Positions 23,192 to 60,199 of a DNA stretch of 64,000 bases are shown piece after piece. Under the pieces are notes generated by a model that did no database searches, had not been told where the DNA came from, and saw only the letters and a program-made list of their open reading frames with translations. How positions within the stretch are numbered: position 1 is the stretch's first letter; each line of letters opens with the position of its first letter. The stretch is from the NCBI RefSeq assembly GCF_055900595.2, contig NZ_CM148325.1; one strand, 5' to 3'. The position numbers were made by a program, and so were the translations under genes.

Positions 23192-25225
23192 TTATTTCAC
23201 CTGATGGCCCGGTTTAGCACCGGCATCCGGGCTTAGCAGGAAGATATCTTTCCCGCCAGGACCGGCAGCCATCACCATGCCTTCGGAGATACCGAAGCGC
23301 ATTTTACGTGGTGCCAGGTTAGCCACCATAATGGTGTGACGACCAATCAGTGCCTGCGGATCCGGGTAAGCAGAACGAATGCCGGAGAAGACATTGCGTT
23401 TTTCACCGCCGAGATCCAGCGTCAGGCGCAGCAGTTTGTCAGAACCTTCAACAAACTCTGCGTTTTCGATCAACGCCACGCGCAGGTCAACTTTGGCGAA
23501 GTCGTCAAAGGTGATGGTTTCCTGAATCGGATCATCTGCCAGCGGGCCAGTAACTGGTGCGGCAGTGGCTTTCACTTCTTCTTTAGATGCTTCCACCAGT
23601 GCTTCAACCTGCTTCATGTCAATACGGTTATACAGCGCCTTGAACGGATTCACTTTGTGGCCCAGCAGCGGTTGCTGGATACCATGCCAGGTCAGTTCCG
23701 TATTGAGGAATGCTTCTGCACGCTCGGTCAGTTTCGGCAGTACCGGCTTCAGGTAAGTCATCAGCACGCGGAACAGGTTTATGCCCATCGAGCAAATTGC
23801 CTGCAGGTCGGCATCGCGGCCTTCCTGTTTCGCCACCACCCACGGAGCCTGTTCATCGACATAGCGGTTAGCCAGATCAGCCAGCGCCATAATTTCGCGC
23901 ACTGCTTTACCAAATTCGCGGCTTTCCCATGCTTCACCAATCACTTCAGCGGCATCCGTGAAGGTTTTGTACAACTGCGGGTCAGCCAGTTCGCTTGCCA
24001 ACACGCCGTCAAAACGCTTGTTGATAAAGCCCGCGTTACGGGATGCCAGGTTTACAACCTTATTAACGATATCGGCATTCACGCGCTGGACGAAATCCTC
24101 GAGGTTGAGATCGATATCATCAATGCGCGAAGAGAGTTTCGCAGTGTAGTAGTAACGCAGGCTGTCAGCGTCAAAATGATTCAGCCAGGTGCTGGCTTTA
24201 ATAAAGGTGCCGCGAGACTTGGACATCTTCGCGCCGTTCACCGTTACATAGCCGTGAACAAACAGGTTGGTCGGCTTGCGGAAGTTGCTACCTTCCAACA
24301 TGGCAGGCCAGAACAGGCTGTGGAAGTAAACAATATCTTTACCGATGAAGTGGTACAGCTCGGCGGTGGAGTCTTTCTTCCAGTATTCATCGAAGCTTAC
24401 GCTGTCGCCGCGCTTGTCACACAGATTCTTGAAAGAACCCATGTAGCCAATCGGTGCGTCCAGCCAGACGTAGAAATATTTGCCCGGCGCGTTCGGAATT
24501 TCAAAACCGAAGTAAGGGGCGTCGCGGGAGATATCCCATTGTTGCAGGCCAGATTCAAACCACTCCTGCATTTTGTTTGCCACCTGCTCCTGCAACGCAC
24601 CGCTGCGGGTCCATGCCTGCAGCATTTCGCTGAAAGAGGGCAGATCAAAGAAGAAGTGTTCAGAATCACGCATTACCGGGGTAGCGCCAGAAACCACCGA
24701 TTTCGGCTCGATCAGTTCAGTCGGGCTGTAGGTCGCGCCGCAGACTTCGCAGTTATCGCCGTATTGATCCGGGGATTTACATTTCGGGCAGGTGCCTTTT
24801 ACAAAACGGTCCGGCAGGAACATGCCTTTTTCCGGATCGTACAGCTGAGAGATGGTGCGGTTTTTAATAAAACCGTTTTCTTTCAGGCGAGAGTAGATAA
24901 GTTCTGACAACTGGCGGTTCTCTTCGCTGTGCGTCGAGTGATAGTTGTCATAGCTGATGTTAAAGCCTGCGAAATCAGTCTGATGCTCCTGACTCATTTC
25001 GCCAATCATCTGCTCCGGAGTGATACCAAGCTGCTGAGCTTTCAACATGATTGGTGTACCGTGGGCATCGTCGGCGCAGATGAAGTTGACCTCGTGGCCG
25101 CGCATTCGCTGGTAACGGACCCAGACATCAGCCTGGATGTGCTCCAGCATATGGCCGAGGTGGATTGAGCCGTTAGCGTACGGCAGTGCGCACGTCACCA
25201 GAATTTTCTTCGCGACTTGAGTCAT
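23192..25225 (-). CDS. metG: Methionine--tRNA ligase
   Basis: 677 aa from [29 protein letters not shown] (HIGH motif), KMSKS motif present; ORF-track start trimmed. Confidence 0.95.
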
Positions 25226-50843: not shown

Positions 50844-51743
50844 TTAACGCAATAATGGACAATCCGGTGGTAATCGACAGCGCAACGCCGCCGGAAGTAT
50901 TTCAATATGAAAGTTTTGCCCACTCAACGGTTCGCCATCAAGATTAAAGGTAATTTCGTGTGGTGCTTGTATATCGAACCACGCCGAAGCACCTTCGATA
51001 ATATTCGGGTTATCTTCGTCAGATTTTAAGGTTGATACGAGAGCCGGAAGAATTTCATCGCCGGTGAAAATGCGCAGTTGCAGTAAGCCGTCGTTAATTA
51101 ATGCGTTCGGGCACAATTGCTGACCGCCACCTGCCTGACGGCCGTTACCAATACCAATGACTAGTGCGTCACCTTGCCAGTGAAAGTTTTCACCGCGGAT
51201 TTCACAACGGTCCGGTTGCAGTGTATCCATGCGCATTAAGCCGTGAATGATGTAAGAGACGCCACCCAGCGCGGCTTTTAATTTTTCCGGCGTTTCTGTG
51301 GTAATACGTGTCCCAAACCCACCCGTTGCCATATTAATAAAACAGGTTTGCTTGTTGACCTGCGCCATATCAATCGCAATAGCGTCACCAGCAATTGCTA
51401 GTTTCAGCGCCTTATCCAGTGCCTCAGGTATACCCACGCTGGTCGCGAAATCGTTCGCTGTACCTAGTGGCAAAATCCCCAGCGCGGGTATGTCATCGCC
51501 CTCACACTGAATCAGCGCCGAGGAAACTTCATTAATAGTGCCATCGCCACCACCGGCAATTACCGTTGCGACGCCCAGCTTCCGGGCCTCTTCTACAAAT
51601 CGGGCGGCATCGCCTTTCTCCCAGGTGACCCGCACATGGATCGTCATTCCTTCCTCGCGCAACAGCATAATTGCTTCGCGCAAGGGTTGATTGTCAGTAC
51701 TTTTGCCGTTAAGAATCAGTAAGCTGGCGGGAAATTCTGCCAT
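50844..51743 (-). CDS. yegS: Lipid kinase YegS (diacylglycerol-kinase catalytic domain)
   Basis: 299 aa; GGDGT motif ([13 protein letters not shown]). Confidence 0.9.
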
Positions 51744-52225
51744 AATCGTATGCCTTTATGATTGGTCTGTAGATAGTGTAGAGCAGAAAAGAAAAGGCGG
51801 AGTCAGAACAGGATGAAAATCGGAGGATAAAAAATCAGTTCAAGGATGGGGAATTCAGTGGTTACCAGTAAGGGGGGCAACGGTACACTCGGTTTTTATC
51901 GGCATAAATGATCACTGAAAGCACTTAAGCATTATTTTACTGTGGATTCAGCGTGGCAGCGAACATTAACGGTAGTCAGGGACAAACTTCAAAAGAGCAT
52001 ATGCATCATATTCAACAAAGCAATGGCATCCTCAATGTACGATTCCAATTATATTAAATAATTCCTATGAGGTTATCTGTGATAGGCCTCCATGTCTGTA
52101 TTTCCTACTTATGTAGGAAATTCTGCACAAAACATTTATTATAATCCTATTCAATAATGACAATGATGTCATTATTATATTTCAACACTAGAGAGTGTCG
52201 TTGGTGTTTAATGGGGGAAGGTGAG

Positions 52226-52543
52226 ATGAAAAAGACAGCTGCTATATCATTAATTAGTGTTTTTCTTATGTCTGGTTGTGCTGTGCATAATGATGAGACA
52301 AGTATCGGTAAATTCGGTCTTGCCTATAAAAGTAATATCCAGCGTAAACTCGATAACCAATACTACACTGAAGCCGAAGCATCTTTAGCCAGGGGCAGAA
52401 TATCTGGTGCGGAAAATATAGTGAAAAATGATGCAGCTAATTTCTGTGTTACTCAGGGCAAAAAAATGCAGATAGTTAACCTGAAGACTGAAGGGGCAGG
52501 ATTACATGGCGTCGCGCGTCTGACATTCAAATGTGGAGAGTGA
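52226..52543 (+). CDS. yegR: Lipoprotein YegR
   Basis: 105 aa from MKKTAAISLISVFLMSGCAV (lipobox); GGAAGGTGAG RBS; ORF-track start 52157 is an extension. Confidence 0.8.
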   Translation: MKKTAAISLISVFLMSGCAVHNDETSIGKFGLAYKSNIQRKLDNQYYTEAEASLARGRISGAENIVKNDAANFCVTQGKKMQIVNLKTEGAGLHGVARLTFKCGE

Positions 52544-52891
52544 GAATAGATTCAAGACTACCATGGACACATCCATTTTTATCTCTGATAAGGTATTCTT
52601 CAACACCATTATTGAATGTGAGTAATAATGACAAGCAGATAGATGAAACTACAGCAGAATTTTTATTTTATGCGGCTATCAGAAAATGATGGCATAAATA
52701 TTCCTATGCTTTAGCTTCATTTTTTGTAAGCGTCAAACATGCGCGTTCTGGCTGTGCGTAGCCGGACCCTGTGCGAGCACGATGCCGTTAAGTGAAAGGC
52801 ATCGTGCTATGAAGGGGAATTCTATCGATATGGTCAATGGAAGGAGGTAACCAGGTATGAATCCTTCCTTCTGTTTCATTGAATTACGCAT

Positions 52892-52978
52892 AAAAAATAA
52901 GCCCGTGTAAGGGAGATTACACAGGCTAAGGAGGTGGTTCCTGGTACAGCTAGCATTTTATGGGTTATGTTTTTCAGC
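52892..52978 (-). ncRNA. cyaR: CyaR (RyeE) Hfq-dependent sRNA
   Basis: Minus-strand sequence GCTGAAAAACATAACCCATAAAATGCTAGCTGTACCAGGAACCACCTCCTTAGCCTGTGTAATCTCCCTTACACGGGCTTATTTTTT matches CyaR as I remember it, including the terminator hairpin and U-tail; located just downstream of yegQ as in K-12. Confidence 0.85.
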
Positions 52979-53062
52979 GGAACGGATGATAACCTTAATA
53001 ACTGCAGCTGTATGTGATCGGTTTCTAAGAATTTTCCATCCGGGAAAAATAATCGAAATTAA

Positions 53063-54424
53063 TCACTTACCGTGGGGGTTACGCGTGGTTTCCCCGGAGA
53101 AATTACGCATCAGCAGCGCGTAATTTAGCTCAAGATCCTGCGGGACCGGGATCCACACAGTATAACCATCGCCCGGTGCGACCGGCATTGCTTCGCCTTT
53201 GGCGTTTTCCATATGCTCAAGGGTAAAGTTAATGTTCCCTTGCGGCGTCATCAGCTCAAGGCTGTCGCCAACGGAGAATTTATTTTTCACCGCTACCGCC
53301 GCGAGGTCGCCCTTGCGCTCACCGGTAAACTCACCAACAAACTGCTGGCGGTCAGAAACTGAATAACCGTATTCGTAGTTCTGATAATCGTCGTGAGTAT
53401 GACGACGCAGGAAACCTTCGGTATAGCCACGATGCGCCAGACCTTCCAGAGTTTCCAGCAGGCTGGTATCGAATGGTTTTCCCGCAGCTGCGTCATCGAT
53501 AGCTTTACGGTAAACCTGCGCGGTGCGTGCGCAATAGTAGAAAGATTTTGTACGACCTTCGATTTTCAGCGAATGCACGCCCATTTTGGTCAGGCGTTCA
53601 ACGTGGGCAATGGCGCGCAAATCTTTTGAGTTCATGATGTAAGTGCCGTGCTCATCTTCAAACGCGGTCATATACTCGCCCGGACGCTGGGCTTCTTCGA
53701 TCATAAACACTTTGTCGGTTGGCGCGCCGATACCCAGCGTCGGCTCAACGTTTTGCACCGGAATTGGTTCGTACTTGTGAACGATGTTGCCAACGTCATC
53801 TTCTTTACCTTCCTGGACGTTGTACTCCCAGCGGCAGGCGTTGGTGCAGGTGCCCTGGTTCGGGTCGCGCTTGTTGATATAGCCAGAGAGCAGGCAGCGA
53901 CCGGAGTAGGCCATGCACAGCGCGCCGTGAACGAAGATCTCTACCTCCATATCCGGCACCTGATTGCGGATCTCTTCAATCTCTTCCAGCGACAGCTCGC
54001 GAGAGAGGATCACACGGGTCAGGCCCATTTGCTGCCAGAATTTCACCGTCGCCCAGTTCACGGCGTTAGCCTGTACCGAGAGATGGATCGGCATTTCAGG
54101 GAAGTGCTCACGCACCAGCATAATCAGCCCTGGATCGGACATAATCAGCGCATCCGGCCCCATTTCCACCACCGGTTTCAGGTCACGGATAAAGGTTTTC
54201 AACTTAGCGTTGTGCGGTGCAATGTTGACCACAACATAAAACTTTTTCCCCAGCGCGTGGGCTTCATTAATGCCGAGCTGGAGATTTTCGTGGTTGAATT
54301 CGTTGTTGCGCACACGCAGGGAGTAACGCGGCTGGCCCGCATAAACAGCATCTGCGCCATAAGCGAAAGCGTAACGCATATTTTTCAGCGTTCCCGCCGG
54401 GGAAAGGAGTTCCGGTTTAAACAT
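53063..54424 (-). CDS. yegQ: Peptidase U32-family protein YegQ (TrhP, tRNA ho5U34 hydroxylation)
   Basis: 453 aa, same length as K-12 YegQ; U32 family. Confidence 0.9.
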   Translation of the reverse strand: MFKPELLSPAGTLKNMRYAFAYGADAVYAGQPRYSLRVRNNEFNHENLQLGINEAHALGKKFYVVVNIAPHNAKLKTFIRDLKPVVEMGPDALIMSDPGLIMLVREHFPEMPIHLSVQANAVNWATVKFWQQMGLTRVILSRELSLEEIEEIRNQVPDMEVEIFVHGALCMAYSGRCLLSGYINKRDPNQGTCTNACRWEYNVQEGKEDDVGNIVHKYEPIPVQNVEPTLGIGAPTDKVFMIEEAQRPGEYMTAFEDEHGTYIMNSKDLRAIAHVERLTKMGVHSLKIEGRTKSFYYCARTAQVYRKAIDDAAAGKPFDTSLLETLEGLAHRGYTEGFLRRHTHDDYQNYEYGYSVSDRQQFVGEFTGERKGDLAAVAVKNKFSVGDSLELMTPQGNINFTLEHMENAKGEAMPVAPGDGYTVWIPVPQDLELNYALLMRNFSGETTRNPHGK

Positions 54425-54629
54425 AATTCTCTCGTTCTGATGACAGGTCAGATCCGCTTCACCTGATGAAGCGGTTAGGGGAGTGCCCCCACTTTAAGGG
54501 CGGGCATTGTAGCGCAATCGGTGGGGTTGACTCCAGTGACAATGTTAAGGGAAAGACTGAGCGCATTTATTTCGTTTTGATTCCGATAGTCGTCAGGTTC
54601 AATTGTTATCAGTTGACCTTAATTTGGTG

Positions 54630-56030
54630 TTAAAGAAAGGGAATATAACCCCATAACTTGTTGTGAAGTTCCGGATTGCAGGTAAAAAGCGCCTGAAGTT
54701 GCTGACGCTGAGGAGCATTTGGTTGAATGTCCGAAAGATTGAAATTGCGTTGCCATATCGCGAGCTGTTTACCTGCAAATTCTTCAGTTAGCTTGTGTTG
54801 CGATTGCAGAAGAAGAATTAAACAGGCCCATTTGTTCAAGTTATGATACAGCCGACAATATGCGCAAGCATGTTTAACTGATGGTGCGTTTTCCAGCAAC
54901 TGACGTATTTCCTCGAACGTGAGCGGAACTCGACACCATACACAGATGTTAACCATAAATCGAAGCCCGGAGGCGTCCGGGTTAGCCAGTGTGGTCAGAA
55001 TAATCCCTTTGACACCACCATCAGGATTGGCTTTCGCAAGAATATACATAGCGGCTAATCGCAGTGGGAATACATCCTGTGATAATCCCCATTCTGCCAG
55101 TTTTAAAATATTGGCATCATGAATGGAGTCCAGCCCGTATAAAGCTGCCCGGCGCTGTGAGGGAGTATATTCAGTCGAGGTGACAACATGACGCCAGAAT
55201 TGCACAACATCCATGACGTCATTAAGCATGTTTTTAGCGCGTAGACGGATCAACATATTGTTATCCAGCAGTAATGCGCTGTACAACGCCGGAGGAATTT
55301 CTATAGCTCGGTCAGTAAGGCTAAACAACGTTGCTTGTCGAATACGCGGCCAGCGGTCTTTTAACAGACGAGTTAATACCGCTTCGCTTAACGGTAATTG
55401 TTGACGCAGCCAGTGGGTGACCGCCAGCATTCGTAAACCTTCGTCGGGCTGCTTGAGTATTAAAAGCAGCGAAGATTCATCATTAAAGTAGCCATATTCA
55501 ATCAGCGTTTGTAATACTGCGCGGGAGAGTTTTTTATCAGGGCAAGTAAGCCAACACGTTAATTGTGGACGGCTATTTTCTGTCAATAAAAATCTAAGTA
55601 TCTCGTCTACAAATGCACGGTGATCGTAACGCTGGCATTGGAGAAGGTTACGTATCAAGGGAAGATTAACGGCAAATGCCGCTGCATTCTTATCCTTCTT
55701 TAAATGACGTAACGCTATGGTTGCAGCAAGGCGAACCTCTTTTACCCAGTCATTAGCTGCAAGTAATAATTCTTCTATAGCTGCAACATCCTCTTTTTGT
55801 CCCAGACATTGCACGGCCTTTTCTCGTATATATCCATTGTGGTGATGGGTAAGCTGGCAAAGAACCAGAGTATCGTTGAGATCACAATCATGCGCTATAT
55901 AATTGCCTGGATCGGCTATCATCGACTGGAGTTGTTGCTGGATAAGAAATAATTCACAGTCAACAGAATTATTCATTTCGACGTTAAACAAAACCCTGCG
56001 TGTAAATAATGTACGCAATCCTTTGAGCAT
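54630..56030 (-). CDS. HEAT-repeat protein of unknown function (466 aa), likely accessory
   Basis: Uninterrupted 1401-nt ORF with an AAGGA RBS; at least three PBS-lyase/HEAT-like repeat pairs; Cys-rich segment CVWCRVPLTFEEIRQLLENAPSVKHACAYCRLY; by-eye GC content below the flanking genes. Confidence 0.75.
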   Translation of the reverse strand: MLKGLRTLFTRRVLFNVEMNNSVDCELFLIQQQLQSMIADPGNYIAHDCDLNDTLVLCQLTHHHNGYIREKAVQCLGQKEDVAAIEELLLAANDWVKEVRLAATIALRHLKKDKNAAAFAVNLPLIRNLLQCQRYDHRAFVDEILRFLLTENSRPQLTCWLTCPDKKLSRAVLQTLIEYGYFNDESSLLLILKQPDEGLRMLAVTHWLRQQLPLSEAVLTRLLKDRWPRIRQATLFSLTDRAIEIPPALYSALLLDNNMLIRLRAKNMLNDVMDVVQFWRHVVTSTEYTPSQRRAALYGLDSIHDANILKLAEWGLSQDVFPLRLAAMYILAKANPDGGVKGIILTTLANPDASGLRFMVNICVWCRVPLTFEEIRQLLENAPSVKHACAYCRLYHNLNKWACLILLLQSQHKLTEEFAGKQLAIWQRNFNLSDIQPNAPQRQQLQALFTCNPELHNKLWGYIPFL

Positions 56031-56110
56031 AATTTTCCTTATCAGTTATGAGGAGAAAACTCATTTCATGATTAATAATTTCCTGAGGGATAGTAACTCT
56101 GTGATGAGAG

Positions 56111-56145
56111 AAAATAAAGCCGGACGCCAACAACCTACGCCCGGC
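56111..56145 (-). terminator. Rho-independent terminator of yegP
   Basis: Minus-strand hairpin gccgggcg...gcgtccggc followed by TTTATTTT, immediately after the yegP stop. Confidence 0.55.
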
Positions 56146-56152
56146 ATCGTAA

Positions 56153-56485
56153 TTACGTATTGTCTTTCACCGTCTGGCTTGTGCCATTGGCTTTAACGGA
56201 GGCAATTCCGGTTTCACGAGATTGCGCGGTGGCGTACATCTGGCTGGAGCCGATAATTTGATGATTGGCGGCTTTCAGATTGAAATAGAATTTGCCGTTG
56301 CTTGCTGTTTTTTTCTCATAGCGTTCTTCTTGTGGGCTGTTGCTACGCACTGACGCGATGCCCTTTTCCGCAGAGGCTTTTGAGGTATACAGCTCGCTGG
56401 TGAGGATAGTCTCACCATTGCCCGCTTTTAGCACAAACCGGAATTGATTATCACTGCTCCTACTGAGTTCAAACCAACCAGCCAT
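56153..56485 (-). CDS. yegP: UPF0339/DUF1508 tandem-domain protein YegP
   Basis: 110 aa from MAGWFELSRSSDNQFRFVLKAGNGETILTSELY...; internal tandem repeat of the DUF1508 unit; ORF-track start trimmed. Confidence 0.88.
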   Translation of the reverse strand: MAGWFELSRSSDNQFRFVLKAGNGETILTSELYTSKASAEKGIASVRSNSPQEERYEKKTASNGKFYFNLKAANHQIIGSSQMYATAQSRETGIASVKANGTSQTVKDNT

Positions 56486-56664
56486 AATGACTCCTTGATT
56501 GAAATTGCGTATCGAAAACAGCATCTAAAAGGACTGTTTGCCGATTAAAGTATGAGCGATTTTCAGGTGCTTGCCAGGGCGGAGAGATAATGTCAGATAG
56601 CCGACAATGCGCGGGATAATGCTGCCGGATGTGGCGTGAATGCCTTCTCCGGCAGGTAAAAATG

Positions 56665-57387
56665 TTAAACGATGCGGCAGGCGTCGGCTTCCCAGCGATA
56701 ACCGACACCGTAGACGGCGCGGATAAAAGACTGCTCTTCGTCCAGAGCTTCCAGCTTGCGACGCAGGTTTTTAATGTGGCTGTCGATGGTGCGGTCAGTT
56801 ACTACGCGGTAGTCGTCATAAAGGTGGTTCAACAACTGCTCACGGGAGAATACTTTTCCCGGTTCATGAGAGAGCGTTTTCAGCAGACGAAATTCCGCAG
56901 GCGTCAGGTCAAGCATTTTACCGCGCCATGAAGCCTGAAAACGACCTTCGTCGATAATCAACGGGCTTTCGGCATCCTGTTGCTGCAACTCGCGCTGCGG
57001 TTTGCAACGGCGCAAAATGGTTTTGACGCGCGCTACCACTTCCCGTGGACTGTACGGCTTACAGATATAATCATCTGCGCCAATCTCCAGCCCGAGCAGG
57101 CGGTCGATCTCTTCGATTTTTGCTGTCACCATCACGATCGGAATGTCAGAAAAACGACGAATTTCCCGACACAACGTCAGGCCATCGGTGCCAGGGAGCA
57201 TCAGATCCAACAGGATCAGATCCGGTGGTGTCTGGCGCACATATGGCAGTACCTGATCGCCGTGGCTGATAAGCGTCGGCGCATAGCTCGCAGCACGCAG
57301 ATAATCAATAAGCAACTGCCCCAGCTTCGGTTCATCTTCCACGATCAAAATACGTGGCGTGTTTTCGTCGATTGGTAACTCGGTCAT
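56665..57387 (-). CDS. baeR: OmpR-family response regulator BaeR
   Basis: 240 aa; receiver domain ([14 protein letters not shown]) plus winged-helix output domain. Confidence 0.92.
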
Positions 57388-58787
57388 ACTTCTCTCTGTA
57401 AATCCCGTTCCAGCGGTAACTCTACTGTAATGCTTACCCCGCCAAAAGGCGAATGAGCGGCAACAATGCGACCATTATGTGCTTCAACAATGTTAAGACA
57501 AATCGCCAGCCCCAGGCCGGAACCGCTGCTGGCACGGTTGCGGGAACCTTCAGTGCGATAAAAACGCTCAAACAATTTTTGCAGTTGATCGTCACTAACG
57601 CCCGGTGCACTGTCGGCAAAGGTCAGGCGCACCGTTTTGTCATGTTGCTCGGCAGAGATATGCAGGCTGCCGCCGCTGTCGGTATAGCGCAGGCTGTTTT
57701 CCAGTAAGTTATTGAACAACTGCATTAAACGATCGCGATCGCCAAATACGGTAATGCTGTCTGGCAGGGAAAATTGCAGTTTCAGCCCGCGGCTGGCGAA
57801 ACGCTCACGAAATGCGCCACCCGCGACTTCCAGTAGCGGGATCAGATCCACCGACGATTTCTGGTAGGCGAGAGCGCCTTCATCAGACATCGACAATTGA
57901 TGAAGATCATCCACCAGTTTGGTCAGTGTACCGACCTCTGCCTGTAAAGAAGCCACCGTCTCCGGCGTGAATTTACGCACGCCATCCTGAATAGCTTCCA
58001 GTTCGCCGCGCAGTACCGCTAAAGGCGTGCGCAGCTCGTGGGAGATATCGGCCATAAAATCGCGGCGCATCTGTTGGTTTTTCTCCAGCGTGCTGGCGAG
58101 CTGGTTGAAGTCTTGCGCCAGTTTGCCCAATTCATCTTCACTGGTGGGCGTCACGCGAGTAGTGAAATCGCCCGCTGCCAGTTTGTGTGTACCGTCCACC
58201 AGTCGTTTGACCGGAGCCAGCAAACCGCGCGCCAGTGGGAATGTCGCCAGCGCCGCTAACAAGGTAGATAAAGCGACAATCAGCCAACTGGTTTGCCTCT
58301 GTTGTCTGTCAAAATTGATATCGGTATTGCGGGTCAGTCGTTCAACAGGGGAGGCGATCACCGCACCCACTTCCGCCCCATTGACCATAATGGGCCGCCG
58401 TGTGCCGTCTGGTGGAATCGGTGCTCGCGGGCCAACCAGCACTTTGTTGTTTTGATCAACCACCCAGAATTGCGTGCGCCAACCGTGTGGCGGCATACCG
58501 GGGCCGGGCTTATCTTCGTTGTTATCATGCTCCAGCGAACGTAGGATCTGAAATACAAAGCGATCGTTATTACGCAGGAAGCGCCAGTTCCCGTGCTGGG
58601 CGTACTGCTCACCAAGCGCATCGCCGAGCATTTGCAGCCGTTGTTCATTACCATGCTTGATGTAATCGATAAAGCCGCGCTCAAAACTGATACGTACCGC
58701 CCAGTGCATCGTGATCAATAAGACAATGCAGGTGGCGAAAATCGCCAGAAACAGTTTGCCGGTAATACCGGGTCGCCAGAACTTCAT
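57384..58787 (-). CDS. baeS: Envelope-stress sensor histidine kinase BaeS
   Basis: 467 aa; two TM segments, HAMP, H-box ([11 protein letters not shown]), ATPase domain; 4-bp overlap with baeR. Confidence 0.92.
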
Positions 58788-60199
58788 TGCGCGCTCCTTT
58801 TTCGCCGCGAAATAGCGACATTTTGATGCGTATCGTTTGGCACTCTGGCAAAGATAAACGCCGGAAGGGCGATGATAAACGCCATGCTAAGCCAGGTGTA
58901 CATAAAGACGGTTTGTGTGGTGCCGCTGTCGACGCTGACATGCTGTGAACCAAAAAGTCCCAGCAACAGCCCGGCGATAGTGACGCCGATACTCATCGAC
59001 AATTGCATAATCATCGACAGCAGGCTGTTTCCGCTGCTCGCCAGATTGTCCGGGAGATCTTTCAGCGTCAGGGTGTTCATGGAGGAGAAACGCGTCGAGT
59101 TGACCATCCCTTGTAAAAACAGGACGAACGGCAAAACATAGTACCAGCCCAGCAGAGCAGTGGTCATAAATAGCAGGGTGACCAGCGACAGACCCAGCGT
59201 GGTCGCCACCAGTACCCGACGATAACCAAAGCTATTCACTACCTGTACCACAATTCGCTTCATCCCCATGCTGCCGAGCACCATCGGGATCATCATCAGT
59301 CCGGCATGAAACGGTGAGAAGCCAAGGCCAATTTGCAGGAAAACCGGCGTCATAAAGGGCAACATGCCGCTACCGATACGTCCGGCAAAACTCCCCGCCA
59401 GACCCAGCGAAAAAGTACGAGTACGGAACAGTTTCAGACTGAAAAGAGCGCGGTTGTTATTTCTGGCGTGCAGCAGATAAAGCACCAGTGCTACCACGCC
59501 AATCGCTGCCAGTCCGGCAATCGCCAGCGGTGAAAGTCCCGTGCCTTTACTGCCATCCAGCGCCAGCGTTAATACCGCCATGCCGACCGCCAGCAATAAA
59601 AAACCGGAGAGATCGAAACGCCGCGTCTGCATGGTGTAGTTTGGCATTAACATCAGCGTGGCGATCGCACCGATAATCCCTACCGGTATGTTGATCAAAA
59701 AGATCCAATGCCAGGACGCGTATTCCACCAGCAGGCCGCCGAGCGCCGGACCCAATAGTGGGCCGACCTGACCGGGCAGCGTAACAAAGGTCATCGCCGC
59801 CATATATTGCTCGCGCGGTACAATTTTCATCACCGTAAGCCTGCCGACCGGCACCATCATCGCGCCGCCAACGCCCTGTAACGCGCGTGCCAGCAACAGT
59901 TCGTTTAGCGTGGCAGAAAGCGCGCAAAACAGCGAACCGAGGGTAAACAGCACGATGGCGGTAAAGAAGATATTGCGTACGCCGACTTTGTCCGCCAGCC
60001 AGCCGCTGGCGGGCAGCATCACCGCCACGGTCAGTACATAAGATACGATGACCATGTGCATATGCAGCGGGCTTTCCCCGAGGCTTTGCGCCATTGAGGG
60101 AAGCGCGGTGTTAACGATGGTGGTGTCCAGCGACTGCATAAAGAAGCCGAAAGCCACAATCCACAATTGCCAGCGGGTGCTGTCGGGAAGATCTGTCAT
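58784..60199 (-). CDS. mdtD: MFS transporter MdtD
   Basis: 471 aa, 14-TM MFS pattern; 4-bp overlap with baeS. Confidence 0.9.

What the first reader, a model, noticed from the sequence alone, without database searches (positions are those of the whole stretch)
52544..52978. CyaR sRNA conserved, but the ogrK/yegZ P2-like remnant appears absent
CyaR is present downstream of yegQ. In K-12, ogrK and the yegZ pseudogene lie between cyaR and yegR as I remember; here only about 350 bp of non-coding DNA separates yegR from the cyaR terminator. A short 17-codon ORF with a strong SD (ggaaggaggtaa) at about 52836-52889 abuts the cyaR 3-prime end from the other strand.
Basis: partly seen in the sequence, partly recalled or inferred. 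Interest (0 to 1): 0.3.

Follow-up and report, generated by a model that had tools for sequence, protein, structure and literature searches.

The report
Empty P2 phage site at cyaR
The K-12 ogrK/yegZ phage scrap is missing because this E. coli strain has the usual unoccupied P2 phage integration site at the end of the cyaR small-RNA gene; the short DNA next to it, yegR included, looks like the worn-down ends of a much older P2-like prophage.

Summary
CyaR lies at 52892-52978 (minus strand) and is identical to the 87-nt K-12 RNA. yegR ends at 52543. The 348 bp between them hold no Ogr, D or integrase sequence.

This is ordinary. The last 27 nt of cyaR (52892-52918) are exactly the P2 attP core, so this is the P2 attachment site. 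It is empty in about 76% of 5,426 complete E. coli genomes. About 13% carry a P2-like prophage there, and 6.6% carry the K-12 remnant (annotated PR-X in MG1655).

The spacer is not free of P2 traces:
- 52825-52891 is a decayed copy of the P2 P arm.
- 51829-51960 is a degenerate core (18/27) followed by a decayed P' arm.
- Together with the intact core, these bound a roughly 1.09-kb block that contains yegR.
- A divergent Escherichia genome (E69) lacks exactly this block.

I read the block as an old, unannotated P2-like prophage relic. This rare allele (17 of 5,426 genomes) keeps it least deleted.

The 17-codon ORF is really at 52857-52910. Its Shine-Dalgarno-like sequence is a mutated Int arm repeat, and most E. 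coli lack its start codon. It is very probably not a gene.

Interest is low to modest.

The parts
51829..51855 (.). Degenerate left copy of the P2 att core (AAAAAATCAGTTCAAGGATGGGGAATT), 18 of 27 positions identical. The 9-bp ATAAAAAAT at 51827-51835 is repeated at 52890-52898.
   Evidence: Homology between the left flank and E69 stops exactly here.
51856..51960 (.). Decayed P' arm relic, aligning to the Cox-binding region and the Int P' arm repeats of P2. About 75% identical to P2 and P22H4. Common E. coli alleles have lost roughly 51876-51946.
   Evidence: Local alignment score 83 against 15.3 +/- 2.3 for 3,000 dinucleotide shuffles. It is the best P' match anywhere in the window on either strand. 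Identity, allele comparison, P2 feature table.
52226..52543 (+). yegR, a 105-aa predicted lipoprotein of unknown function, lying inside the att-bounded block.
   Evidence: ORF; RefSeq annotation of the identical strain M160133. Homologues are almost all Escherichia/Shigella. Homologues at 48-81% identity sit in unrelated genomic contexts. No phage copy was found apart from bacterial flanks in prophage records.
52547..52722 (+). Decayed 5' fragment of a second lipoprotein gene, with the lipobox Cys lost. It is absent from O157- and K-12-type alleles.
   Evidence: tblastn of the gene that follows yegR homologues in L022: 48.6% over 35 aa, E=1.25e-5, at 52555-52659, same strand and same relative position. 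The segment is present in 931 of 5,426 genomes. Indel seen.
52776..52808 (.). Hairpin with a perfect 11-bp stem and an 11-nt loop, without a U-tract. It lies just left of the P-arm relic, where the ogr terminator lies in P2.
   Evidence: Fold z-scores of -4.7 and -5.2 on the two strands. The stem is conserved in O157, TUM13754 and K-12 alleles while the loop varies.
52825..52891 (.). Decayed P arm relic. 52825-52852 aligns to the two Int arm-type repeats of P2, and 52853-52891 aligns to the IHF-site segment. Common E. coli alleles lack 20 bp here (about 52861-52880).
   Evidence: blastn to Peduovirus attP: 83% to P22H4 and 76.6% to P2, both including the core. P2 features, alignment. Arm-only score 58 against 13.4 +/- 2.2 in 2,000 shuffles. 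Arm-only identity 71-78%.
52839..52850 (+). SD-like GGAAGGAGGTAA. It is the mutated second Int arm repeat: P2 has TGTGGACGTGA and common E. coli has GGAAGACGGTTA.
52857..52910 (+). 17-codon ORF MNPSFCFIELRIKNKPV*. It spans the IHF-segment relic and runs 19 nt into the att core and cyaR terminator on the opposite strand.
   Evidence: It is intact only in the 17 genomes with this allele. Its start codon and first codons fall in the 20 bp that other E. coli lack.
52892..52918 (.). Intact 27-bp P2 att core (AAAAAATAAGCCCGTGTAAGGGAGATT). This is the attB core and equals the last 27 nt of CyaR.
   Evidence: Exact match to the attP core annotated in AF063097 at 24356-24382. cyaR coordinates.
52892..52978 (-). 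cyaR (ryeE) sRNA gene, 87 nt, identical to MG1655.
52979..53062 (-). cyaR promoter region and yegQ-cyaR spacer. The first 90 nt upstream of cyaR differ from MG1655 at 2 positions.
53063..54424 (-). yegQ/trhP, the conserved right-hand flank of the site.

Best explanation
The interval is the unoccupied attachment site (attB) for P2-family phages, the site classical P2 genetics calls locI (name from memory). The 27-bp recombination core is the 3' end of the cyaR gene: the loop, the 3' half of the terminator stem and the U-tail.

A P2-like integrase recombines the identical phage core with this sequence. Because the core is duplicated, cyaR is rebuilt intact at attR. No phage sits there in this strain, so yegR and cyaR are 348 bp apart. 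K-12's ogrK-yegZ (PR-X) is a later remnant found in a minority of genomes. It formed when a resident P2-like prophage was deleted from inside its attL core into gene D.

The 1.09-kb block 51829-52918 is itself the residue of a much older P2-like integration. Its parts, left to right:
- a degenerate core;
- a P' arm relic;
- yegR;
- a fragment of a second lipoprotein gene;
- a hairpin;
- a P arm relic;
- the intact core.

Today's functional attB core is therefore the attR core of that ancient prophage. All phage genes are gone. yegR is most likely DNA brought in with, or inserted into, that element. The window carries the least-deleted allele of the relic.

The 17-codon ORF and its 'strong SD' are by-products of point mutations in the decayed Int-binding repeat and the IHF segment. 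They are not a gene.

Shown:
- identity of the core with the P2 core and with the cyaR 3' end;
- absence of Ogr, D and Int;
- prophages at this exact site in other strains;
- frequencies of the site configurations;
- statistical homology of both flanks to P2 arms;
- precise absence of the block in E69.

Inferred:
- the direction of the event (insertion rather than loss);
- the phage origin of the block's interior;
- non-functionality of the ORF.
For: 1. The core AAAAAATAAGCCCGTGTAAGGGAGATT occurs once in the window, at 52892-52918. It equals the attP core annotated in P2 AF063097 and the last 27 nt of cyaR.

2. P2-like prophages sit at this exact junction in other strains. ON470606 reads gatR-yegS-yegR-spacer-core-int-C-cox. 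WCHEC005784 has an integrase next to yegR.

3. Junction counts in 5,426 complete genomes:
- common empty junction, 4,142;
- prophage attL junction, 699;
- K-12 attL'/D' junction, 358;
- this allele, 17.

4. The K-12-type remnant (locus L002) reads partial core, D', ogrK, P arm, full core, and MG1655 annotates that stretch as PR-X. Its left bacterial arm is the common 20-bp-deleted type, not the window type.

5. Published record. Archer 2011 Table 2 lists the insertion site 'cyaR RNA' as W = Wphi2 (P2), K-12 = ogr-D', Crooks = empty (PMC3032704). ryeE is cited as a known phage target (PMC3603311).

6. P arm relic: blastn gives 83% to P22H4 and 76.6% to P2 over Int sites, IHF site and core. The arm alone scores 58 against 13.4 +/- 2.2, with 0 of 2,000 shuffles reaching it.

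7. P' relic: score 83 against 15.3 +/- 2.3, with 0 of 3,000 shuffles reaching it. The next-best unrelated place in the window scores 24-28. The left core matches 18 of 27 positions.

8. E. coli-labelled E69 is at most about 90% identical to any of the 5,426 genomes at gatD-yegS. It joins the yegS upstream region directly to the core, and its left-flank homology to the window ends exactly at the degenerate core.

9. Kluyvera ascorbata has a two-gene module resembling a HigB/HigA toxin-antitoxin pair (assigned by eye from the translations) abutting the same core instead of yegR.

10. Common alleles share the same degenerate left core but carry three deletions relative to the window: about 70 bp of the P' relic, the 176-bp gene fragment, and 20 bp of the P arm.

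11. yegR homologues at 68-81% identity sit at unrelated loci, and two of these contigs (L022, L023) have a second lipoprotein gene directly downstream. A fragment of that second gene survives at 52555-52659.
Against: - No phage-derived coding sequence survives inside the block, and yegR has no homologue in 50,697 phage records other than bacterial flanks. The prophage origin of the interior rests only on the att-like ends.
- The left core is only 18/27. The 9-bp repeat ATAAAAAAT flanking the block would equally fit a microhomology deletion in E69.
- Database-wide blastn did not recover the P' similarity. It was found by a targeted alignment after the P-arm result suggested where to look.
- In the common alleles taken alone, the P' similarity to P2 is weak (z 2.4-2.9).
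- Only one close outgroup (E69) and one distant one (Kluyvera) were available. E. albertii, E. fergusonii and E. marmotae were not examined.
- About 200 genomes fit none of the four junction classes, so the frequencies are approximate.
Confidence: 0.85

Rival explanations
1. This strain once had the K-12-type ogrK-yegZ remnant (PR-X) and lost it secondarily, so the empty site is derived from the K-12 state.
For: K-12 has a partial core on the left of PR-X and a full core on the right. Recombination between them could in principle delete the remnant.
Against: - The window's arm next to the core is the full-length type. K-12's bacterial arm carries the 20-bp deletion and lacks the 176-bp segment, so deleting PR-X from K-12 would not produce this sequence.
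- The empty junction is the majority state (4,142 of 5,426), against 358 for the K-12 junction.
Confidence: 0.03
2. The 17-codon ORF (52857-52910) with its strong SD is a real small-protein gene, possibly cross-regulated with CyaR because it is antisense to the CyaR 3' end.
For: - A GGAGG motif lies 9 nt upstream of the ATG.
- The ORF is intact in AH01, one of the seven genomes among the 17 carriers of this allele that differ by one base in the 111-bp query.
- Any plus-strand transcript would be complementary to CyaR.
Against: - It occurs in only 17 of 5,426 genomes, and these are near-identical, so they give no evidence of selection.
- The start codon and first codons lie in 20 bp that the other E. 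coli lack.
- The sequence derives from a phage attP arm, and the phage arms have no ORF there.
- The nearest promoter-like match on the plus strand is a weak 9/12 at 52600-52629.
- In the predicted fold the SD pairs with codons 3-5, though that fold is not better than shuffles.
Confidence: 0.05
3. The yegR block is native chromosome, not a prophage relic. The arm-like similarity exists because P2-family phages copied host sequence next to their attB, or it is a local coincidence. E69 simply suffered a microhomology deletion between the two ATAAAAAAT repeats.
For: - 9-bp direct repeats flank exactly the segment missing in E69.
- There are no phage genes inside the block.
- Only one close outgroup was available.
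Against: - Both arms are present in the order and orientation expected of attL and attR, with z of about 20 and 30. Pick-up of host DNA by aberrant excision normally captures one flank, not both (general knowledge).
- The P and P' arms carry functional Int, IHF and Cox sites in P2 and are nearly identical among Peduoviruses, while the host copies are decayed.
- Kluyvera also lacks yegR at this position and has different genes abutting the core.
- yegR homologues live at unrelated loci elsewhere.
Confidence: 0.1

Closest known systems
P2 attB 'locI', the preferred P2 integration site of E. coli C, at the cyaR (ryeE) 3' end
   Same: - The same 27-bp core, identical to the P2 attP core.
- The same position between yegQ/cyaR and yegR.
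- P2-like prophages occupy it in about 13% of complete genomes.
- It is published as the 'cyaR RNA' insertion site (PMC3032704).
   Different: As an attB, nothing essential differs. This allele has an unusual left flank: a full-length P-arm relic, found in 17 of 5,426 genomes. The name locI and the E. coli C data come from memory of Barreiro & Haggard-Ljungquist 1992, which I could not retrieve here.
K-12 cryptic prophage PR-X (ogrK, yegZ = D', attR)
   Same: The same integration site and phage family. Both are remnants left after a large internal deletion of a P2-like prophage that kept the attR end.
   Different: PR-X keeps recognisable phage genes (ogr, D') and a nearly intact P arm. The relic here keeps only decayed arms and a degenerate left core, and it holds non-phage genes (yegR). 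PR-X is absent from the window. In K-12 it is nested at the right end of the older relic.
Phage integration into the 3' ends of tRNA, tmRNA and sRNA genes (for example phage 186 in tRNA-Ile, prophages at ssrA, ryeB/rybB)
   Same: The attB core overlaps the terminator and 3' end of a structured RNA gene, and the phage carries a copy that restores the gene (PMC3603311; PMC3448106).
   Different: Here the target is an Hfq-dependent sRNA rather than a tRNA. The site also carries stacked generations of remnants.

Membership tests
Unoccupied P2-family attB at cyaR (locI) | 27-bp core identical to the P2 attP core | tested here: met
   Exact match at 52892-52918 to the attP core annotated in AF063097 at 24356-24382.
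Unoccupied P2-family attB at cyaR (locI) | P2-like prophages found integrated at exactly this junction in other strains, with core repeats at both ends | tested here: met
   ON470606 and WCHEC005784. The attL junction is present in 699 of 5,426 genomes.
Unoccupied P2-family attB at cyaR (locI) | No phage genes between the flanking host genes | tested here: met
   tblastn with OgrK, D' and Int gave only noise. Bacterial flank, core and cyaR are contiguous.
Unoccupied P2-family attB at cyaR (locI) | Supports Int-mediated integration in vivo | not testable with these tools
   Needs a lysogenisation experiment.
CyaR/RyeE sRNA (Rfam RF00112) | Covariance-model score above the gathering threshold, full length | tested here: met
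   99.8 bits against 47, model positions 1-85 of 85. 87 of 87 nt identical to MG1655 cyaR.
CyaR/RyeE sRNA (Rfam RF00112) | Intrinsic terminator at the 3' end | tested here: met
   11-pair stem followed by TATTTTTTAT, at 52927-52900 on the minus strand.
CyaR/RyeE sRNA (Rfam RF00112) | CRP-dependent promoter | tested here: inconclusive
   The 90 nt upstream differ from MG1655 at only 2 positions. No CRP-site scoring or expression data were obtained.
K-12 cryptic prophage PR-X (ogrK-yegZ) | Ogr zinc-finger ORF and a D' fragment between cyaR and yegR | tested here: not met
   No hit in 52544-52894. The 629-bp PR-X of MG1655 has no counterpart in the alignment.
Decayed, att-bounded P2-like prophage remnant | attR-type end: P arm (Int arm repeats, IHF segment) followed by the core | tested here: met
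   52825-52918. 76.6-83% identity to Peduovirus attP including the core; 71-78% for the arm alone. Shuffle z of about 20.
Decayed, att-bounded P2-like prophage remnant | attL-type end: core followed by the P' arm (Cox and Int P' sites), in the matching orientation | tested here: met
   51829-51960. Core 18/27, P' relic 75% identical. Score 83 against 15.3 +/- 2.3. The core itself is degenerate.
Decayed, att-bounded P2-like prophage remnant | Phage-derived genes or pseudogenes inside | tested here: not met
   No Int, Ogr or D. yegR has no phage homologue. No phage DNA match to the interior beyond host flanks.
Decayed, att-bounded P2-like prophage remnant | Precise absence of the block, leaving a single core, in a related lineage | tested here: met
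   E69 reads yegS upstream region | core | cyaR. E69 is at most about 90% identical to any E. coli at this locus. This rests on a single close outgroup.
Small-protein gene (17 aa) | Conservation of the reading frame across diverged relatives | tested here: not met
   Present only in 17 near-identical genomes. The start is deleted in the common alleles. There is no ORF in the homologous phage arms.
Small-protein gene (17 aa) | Evidence of transcription and translation | not testable with these tools
   No expression data are available here.

The most novel reading that the evidence does not exclude
The 1.09-kb yegR block is not just dead relic DNA. It could be a minimal att-bounded cassette that a superinfecting P2-family phage can still excise, and perhaps move, with its Int, Cox and IHF. 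The degenerate left core (18/27) would act as a secondary-type att site. From memory, P2 tolerates secondary attB sites with about 20/27 identity. On this reading the window allele, which keeps the fullest P and P' arms, would be the most mobilisable form, and E69-type 'clean' sites could be excision products. A phage integrating next to the relic P arm would also create an attL that resembles a complete attP, which might alter prophage stability at this site.
Probability: 0.06. Interest if true: 0.5.

Novelty: new member of a known kind. Interest (0 to 1): 0.25.

Why it matters
It shows K-12 is the exception and that this strain has a free P2 site.

The added result is a modest piece of natural history:
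- It suggests that E. coli's 'empty' preferred P2 site is the surviving attR of an older P2-like prophage.
- It implies that yegR, an uncharacterised lipoprotein gene present in essentially all E. coli, arrived inside that element.
- It shows that the cyaR terminator has been hit repeatedly, giving stacked remnants in K-12.

This is useful for annotation: PR-X has an older neighbour, and yegR and the spacer are best treated as horizontally acquired. It also gives a caution for small-ORF prediction next to att sites, because decayed Int-binding repeats can mimic strong Shine-Dalgarno sequences.

Tried and rejected
1. A sharp change in divergence at the att core, which would mark a recombination breakpoint. 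Rejected: the window is 2-13% diverged per 100 bp on both sides.
2. yegR as a known phage moron. tblastn against 50,697 phage records found only bacterial flanks in two prophage-derived records.
3. Database-wide blastn of 51800-52230 against phages. This did not recover the P' similarity, which needed a targeted alignment with shuffle and whole-window controls.
4. Pfam and NCBIfam for YegR and the downstream lipoprotein. No family passed its cut-off in the local libraries; there was only a weak DUF4156 hint at E=0.08. The protein database's precomputed annotation does list PF27694 (YegR).
5. An IHF consensus (WATCAANNNNTTR) in the relic. No match in the window or in P22H4, and only the shorter core motif TCAANNNNTTR in P2. 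I therefore make no claim that an IHF site is retained.
6. Literature searches for an earlier description of att-like flanks around yegR. Nothing was found. The key 1992 locI paper and Karlsson 2006 are not in the held library.
7. E69-type junctions among complete E. coli genomes. None of 5,426 has one.
8. The OgrK hit at 58409-58501 (E=0.006). It lies in baeS by synteny and is a chance match.

Full report
**Observation.** The window runs gatR (49983-50762, +), yegS (50844-51743, -), yegR (52226-52543, +), cyaR (-) and yegQ/trhP (53063-54424, -). This is the K-12 order read in reverse. Rfam places CyaR at 52895-52980 on the minus strand, at 99.8 bits against a gathering score of 47. The 87-nt MG1655 cyaR matches exactly at 52892-52978, and its terminator was found independently.

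The yegR stop and the cyaR 3' end are 348 bp apart. MG1655 has ogrK, the yegZ pseudogene and the annotated 629-bp 'cryptic prophage PR-X' in that gap. In the window, tblastn with OgrK, the D' fragment and a P2-like integrase gave only noise, even at E up to 100. The 17-codon ORF is real but sits at 52857-52910, 21 nt to the right of the stated coordinates, and it overlaps cyaR by 19 nt.

**What the site is.** The sequence AAAAAATAAGCCCGTGTAAGGGAGATT occurs once in the window, at 52892-52918. It is letter for letter the attP core annotated in the P2 genome (AF063097 24356-24382). It is also exactly the last 27 nt of cyaR. Other strains carry P2-like prophages at precisely this junction. ON470606 is a Peduovirus record that includes its host flank; it reads gatR-yegS-yegR-spacer-core-P' arm-int-C-cox. 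WCHEC005784 has a phage integrase next to yegR. The interval is therefore an unoccupied attB for P2-family phages. Because the phage core duplicates the cyaR 3' end, integration leaves cyaR intact.

**How common each state is.** I ran junction-specific queries against 5,426 complete E. coli genomes:

| Junction type | Genomes | Share |
|---|---|---|
| Common empty junction (host arm + core + cyaR) | 4,142 | 76% |
| P2-like attL junction | 699 | 13% |
| K-12 junction (partial core fused to D') | 358 | 6.6% |
| Window-type empty junction | 17 | 0.3% |

About 200 genomes fit none of these classes. The K-12 remnant is the exception, not the rule. The polymorphism is already in the literature. Archer et al. 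2011 list the insertion site 'cyaR RNA' as P2-like prophage in W, ogr-D' in K-12 and empty in Crooks (PMC3032704). Bobay et al. 2013 cite ryeE as a known phage target (PMC3603311).

The window's site is not derived from the K-12 state. The bacterial arm to the left of K-12's PR-X is the common type, with a 20-bp deletion and without the 176-bp segment.

**The spacer is not free of P2 sequence.** blastn of 52800-52925 against phage genomes hit Peduovirus attP regions at 83% (P22H4) and 76.6% (P2). In the P2 record the match lies under the annotated Int P-arm site, the IHF site and the core. With the core excluded, the 67-bp arm (52825-52891) still scores 58 against 13.4 +/- 2.2 for dinucleotide shuffles, and 0 of 2,000 shuffles reach it. 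Arm-only identity to phage arms is 71-78%. The common E. coli alleles share the first part (TCGATGTGGTCAATG...) but lack 20 bp of the IHF segment.

P2 has TGTGGACGTGA there and common E. coli has GGAAGACGGTTA. The ORF runs through the IHF-segment relic into the core.

**The other end.** A scan of one genome per species found an E. coli-labelled genome, E69. Its gatD-yegS region is at most about 90% identical to any of the 5,426 E. coli genomes, so it is a divergent lineage. In E69 the yegS upstream region joins directly to the core and cyaR. Homology to the window stops exactly at 51829.

From that point the window reads AAAAAATCAGTTCAAGGATGGGGAATT, which matches the core at 18 of 27 positions. 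It continues with about 105 bp that align to the P2 P' arm, covering the Cox-binding region and the Int P' repeats, at 75% identity. The alignment score is 83 against 15.3 +/- 2.3, with 0 of 3,000 shuffles reaching it. It is also the best match to the P' arm anywhere in the 64-kb window on either strand; unrelated places score 24-28.

The block 51829-52918 therefore has the layout of a prophage: core, P' arm, interior, P arm, core.

Further context:
- Kluyvera ascorbata has a two-gene module resembling a HigB/HigA toxin-antitoxin pair (assigned by eye from the translations) abutting the same core instead of yegR.
- No complete E. coli genome has the E69-type junction.
- K-12, TUM13754 and the host of ON470606 share the same degenerate left core but have lost about 70 bp of the P' relic.

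The relic therefore predates the divergence of these alleles, and the window carries its least-deleted form.

**The interior.** YegR homologues are almost all from Escherichia and Shigella. Those at 48-81% identity lie in unrelated contexts:
- an IS-rich island in an Enterobacter genome;
- between glutaminase and nitroreductase/Ivy genes;
- next to a MerR regulator.

In two of these contigs a second small lipoprotein gene follows yegR directly. Its N-terminus matches window 52555-52659 at 48.6% over 35 aa (E=1.25e-5), on the same strand and in the same position, with the lipobox cysteine lost. So the 176-bp AT-rich segment 52547-52722 is a decayed gene fragment. It is present in 931 genomes and absent from O157 and K-12.

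No phage gene survives inside the block. This is the main weakness of the relic reading.

A hairpin with a perfect 11-bp stem (52776-52808; z about -5) lies where the ogr terminator lies in P2. Its stem is conserved among alleles. Its function is unknown.

**The 17-codon ORF.**
- It exists only in the 17 near-identical genomes with this allele.
- Its start lies in DNA that other E. coli lack.
- The homologous phage arms have no ORF.
- No convincing promoter precedes it.

I put the chance that it is a real gene at about 5%.

**Verdict.** The finding as stated is correct but ordinary and already known: an empty P2 site at cyaR, with K-12 as the odd one out. The extra result is that yegR and its flanks look like an older, unannotated P2-like prophage relic whose attR core is today's attB. 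I found no description of this in the searchable literature, although the key 1992 paper could not be read. It would be a new member of a familiar kind (a cryptic prophage remnant) and of modest interest.

Noticed in passing
window 54516-56118: A second variable slot lies on the other side of yegQ. The window has a 466-aa HEAT-repeat protein gene (54630-56030, minus strand) between yegQ and yegP. O157 has nothing there. TUM13754 has a different 5-kb island (PcfJ, DUF1266, DUF4034).
   Followed up: partly
window 52776-52808: A hairpin with a perfect 11-bp stem and an 11-nt loop; z is about -5 on both strands. The stem is conserved in O157, K-12 and TUM13754 alleles while the loop varies. There is no U-tract. 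It sits just left of the P-arm relic, where P2 has the ogr terminator. Function unknown.
   Followed up: partly
window 52547-52722: This AT-rich segment is the decayed 5' end of a second lipoprotein gene that follows yegR homologues in other enterobacterial contigs. It is present in 931 of 5,426 E. coli genomes, Nissle 1917 and UTI89 among them, and deleted in O157 and K-12.
   Followed up: yes
window 44000-60000: The whole region is unusually diverged for E. coli: about 95.5% identity to O157 and TUM13754 across the gat operon, 88% around yegR, and 92% in baeSR-mdtD. The haplotype is shared by only 17-20 of 5,426 genomes, including APEC O78 strains and M160133, which is 100% identical over the 951-bp query. 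This suggests import from a divergent Escherichia lineage.
   Followed up: partly
window 49983-50762: gatR is intact here (259 aa), whereas MG1655 gatR is interrupted by IS3E.
   Followed up: no
window 50775-50836: A weak sub-threshold Rfam hit to naRNA4 (33 bits against a gathering score of 59.5) between gatR and yegS. It may be a REP-type palindromic element (my interpretation).
   Followed up: no
L014 10316-11022 (Kluyvera ascorbata): A two-gene module (113 aa and 122 aa) that looks like a HigA/HigB toxin-antitoxin pair lies between yegS and the cyaR terminator and abuts the same 27-bp core. This suggests the slot is a cross-genus insertion hotspot. The HigA/HigB assignment is by eye from the translations and was not checked against a family library.
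   Followed up: partly
L007 (E. coli WCHEC005784) about 3560: The P2-like prophage next to yegR in this strain does not have the exact 27-bp core at its left junction; only AAGCCCGTG was found. This points to a variant core or a different Peduovirus integrase specificity at the same site.
   Followed up: no
NC_012971.2 (BL21(DE3)) 2066049-2066169: BL21(DE3) shows a contiguous empty-type junction, although Archer 2011 lists a P2-like element (P2*B) at cyaR for strain B REL606. The discrepancy between B derivatives was not resolved.
   Followed up: no
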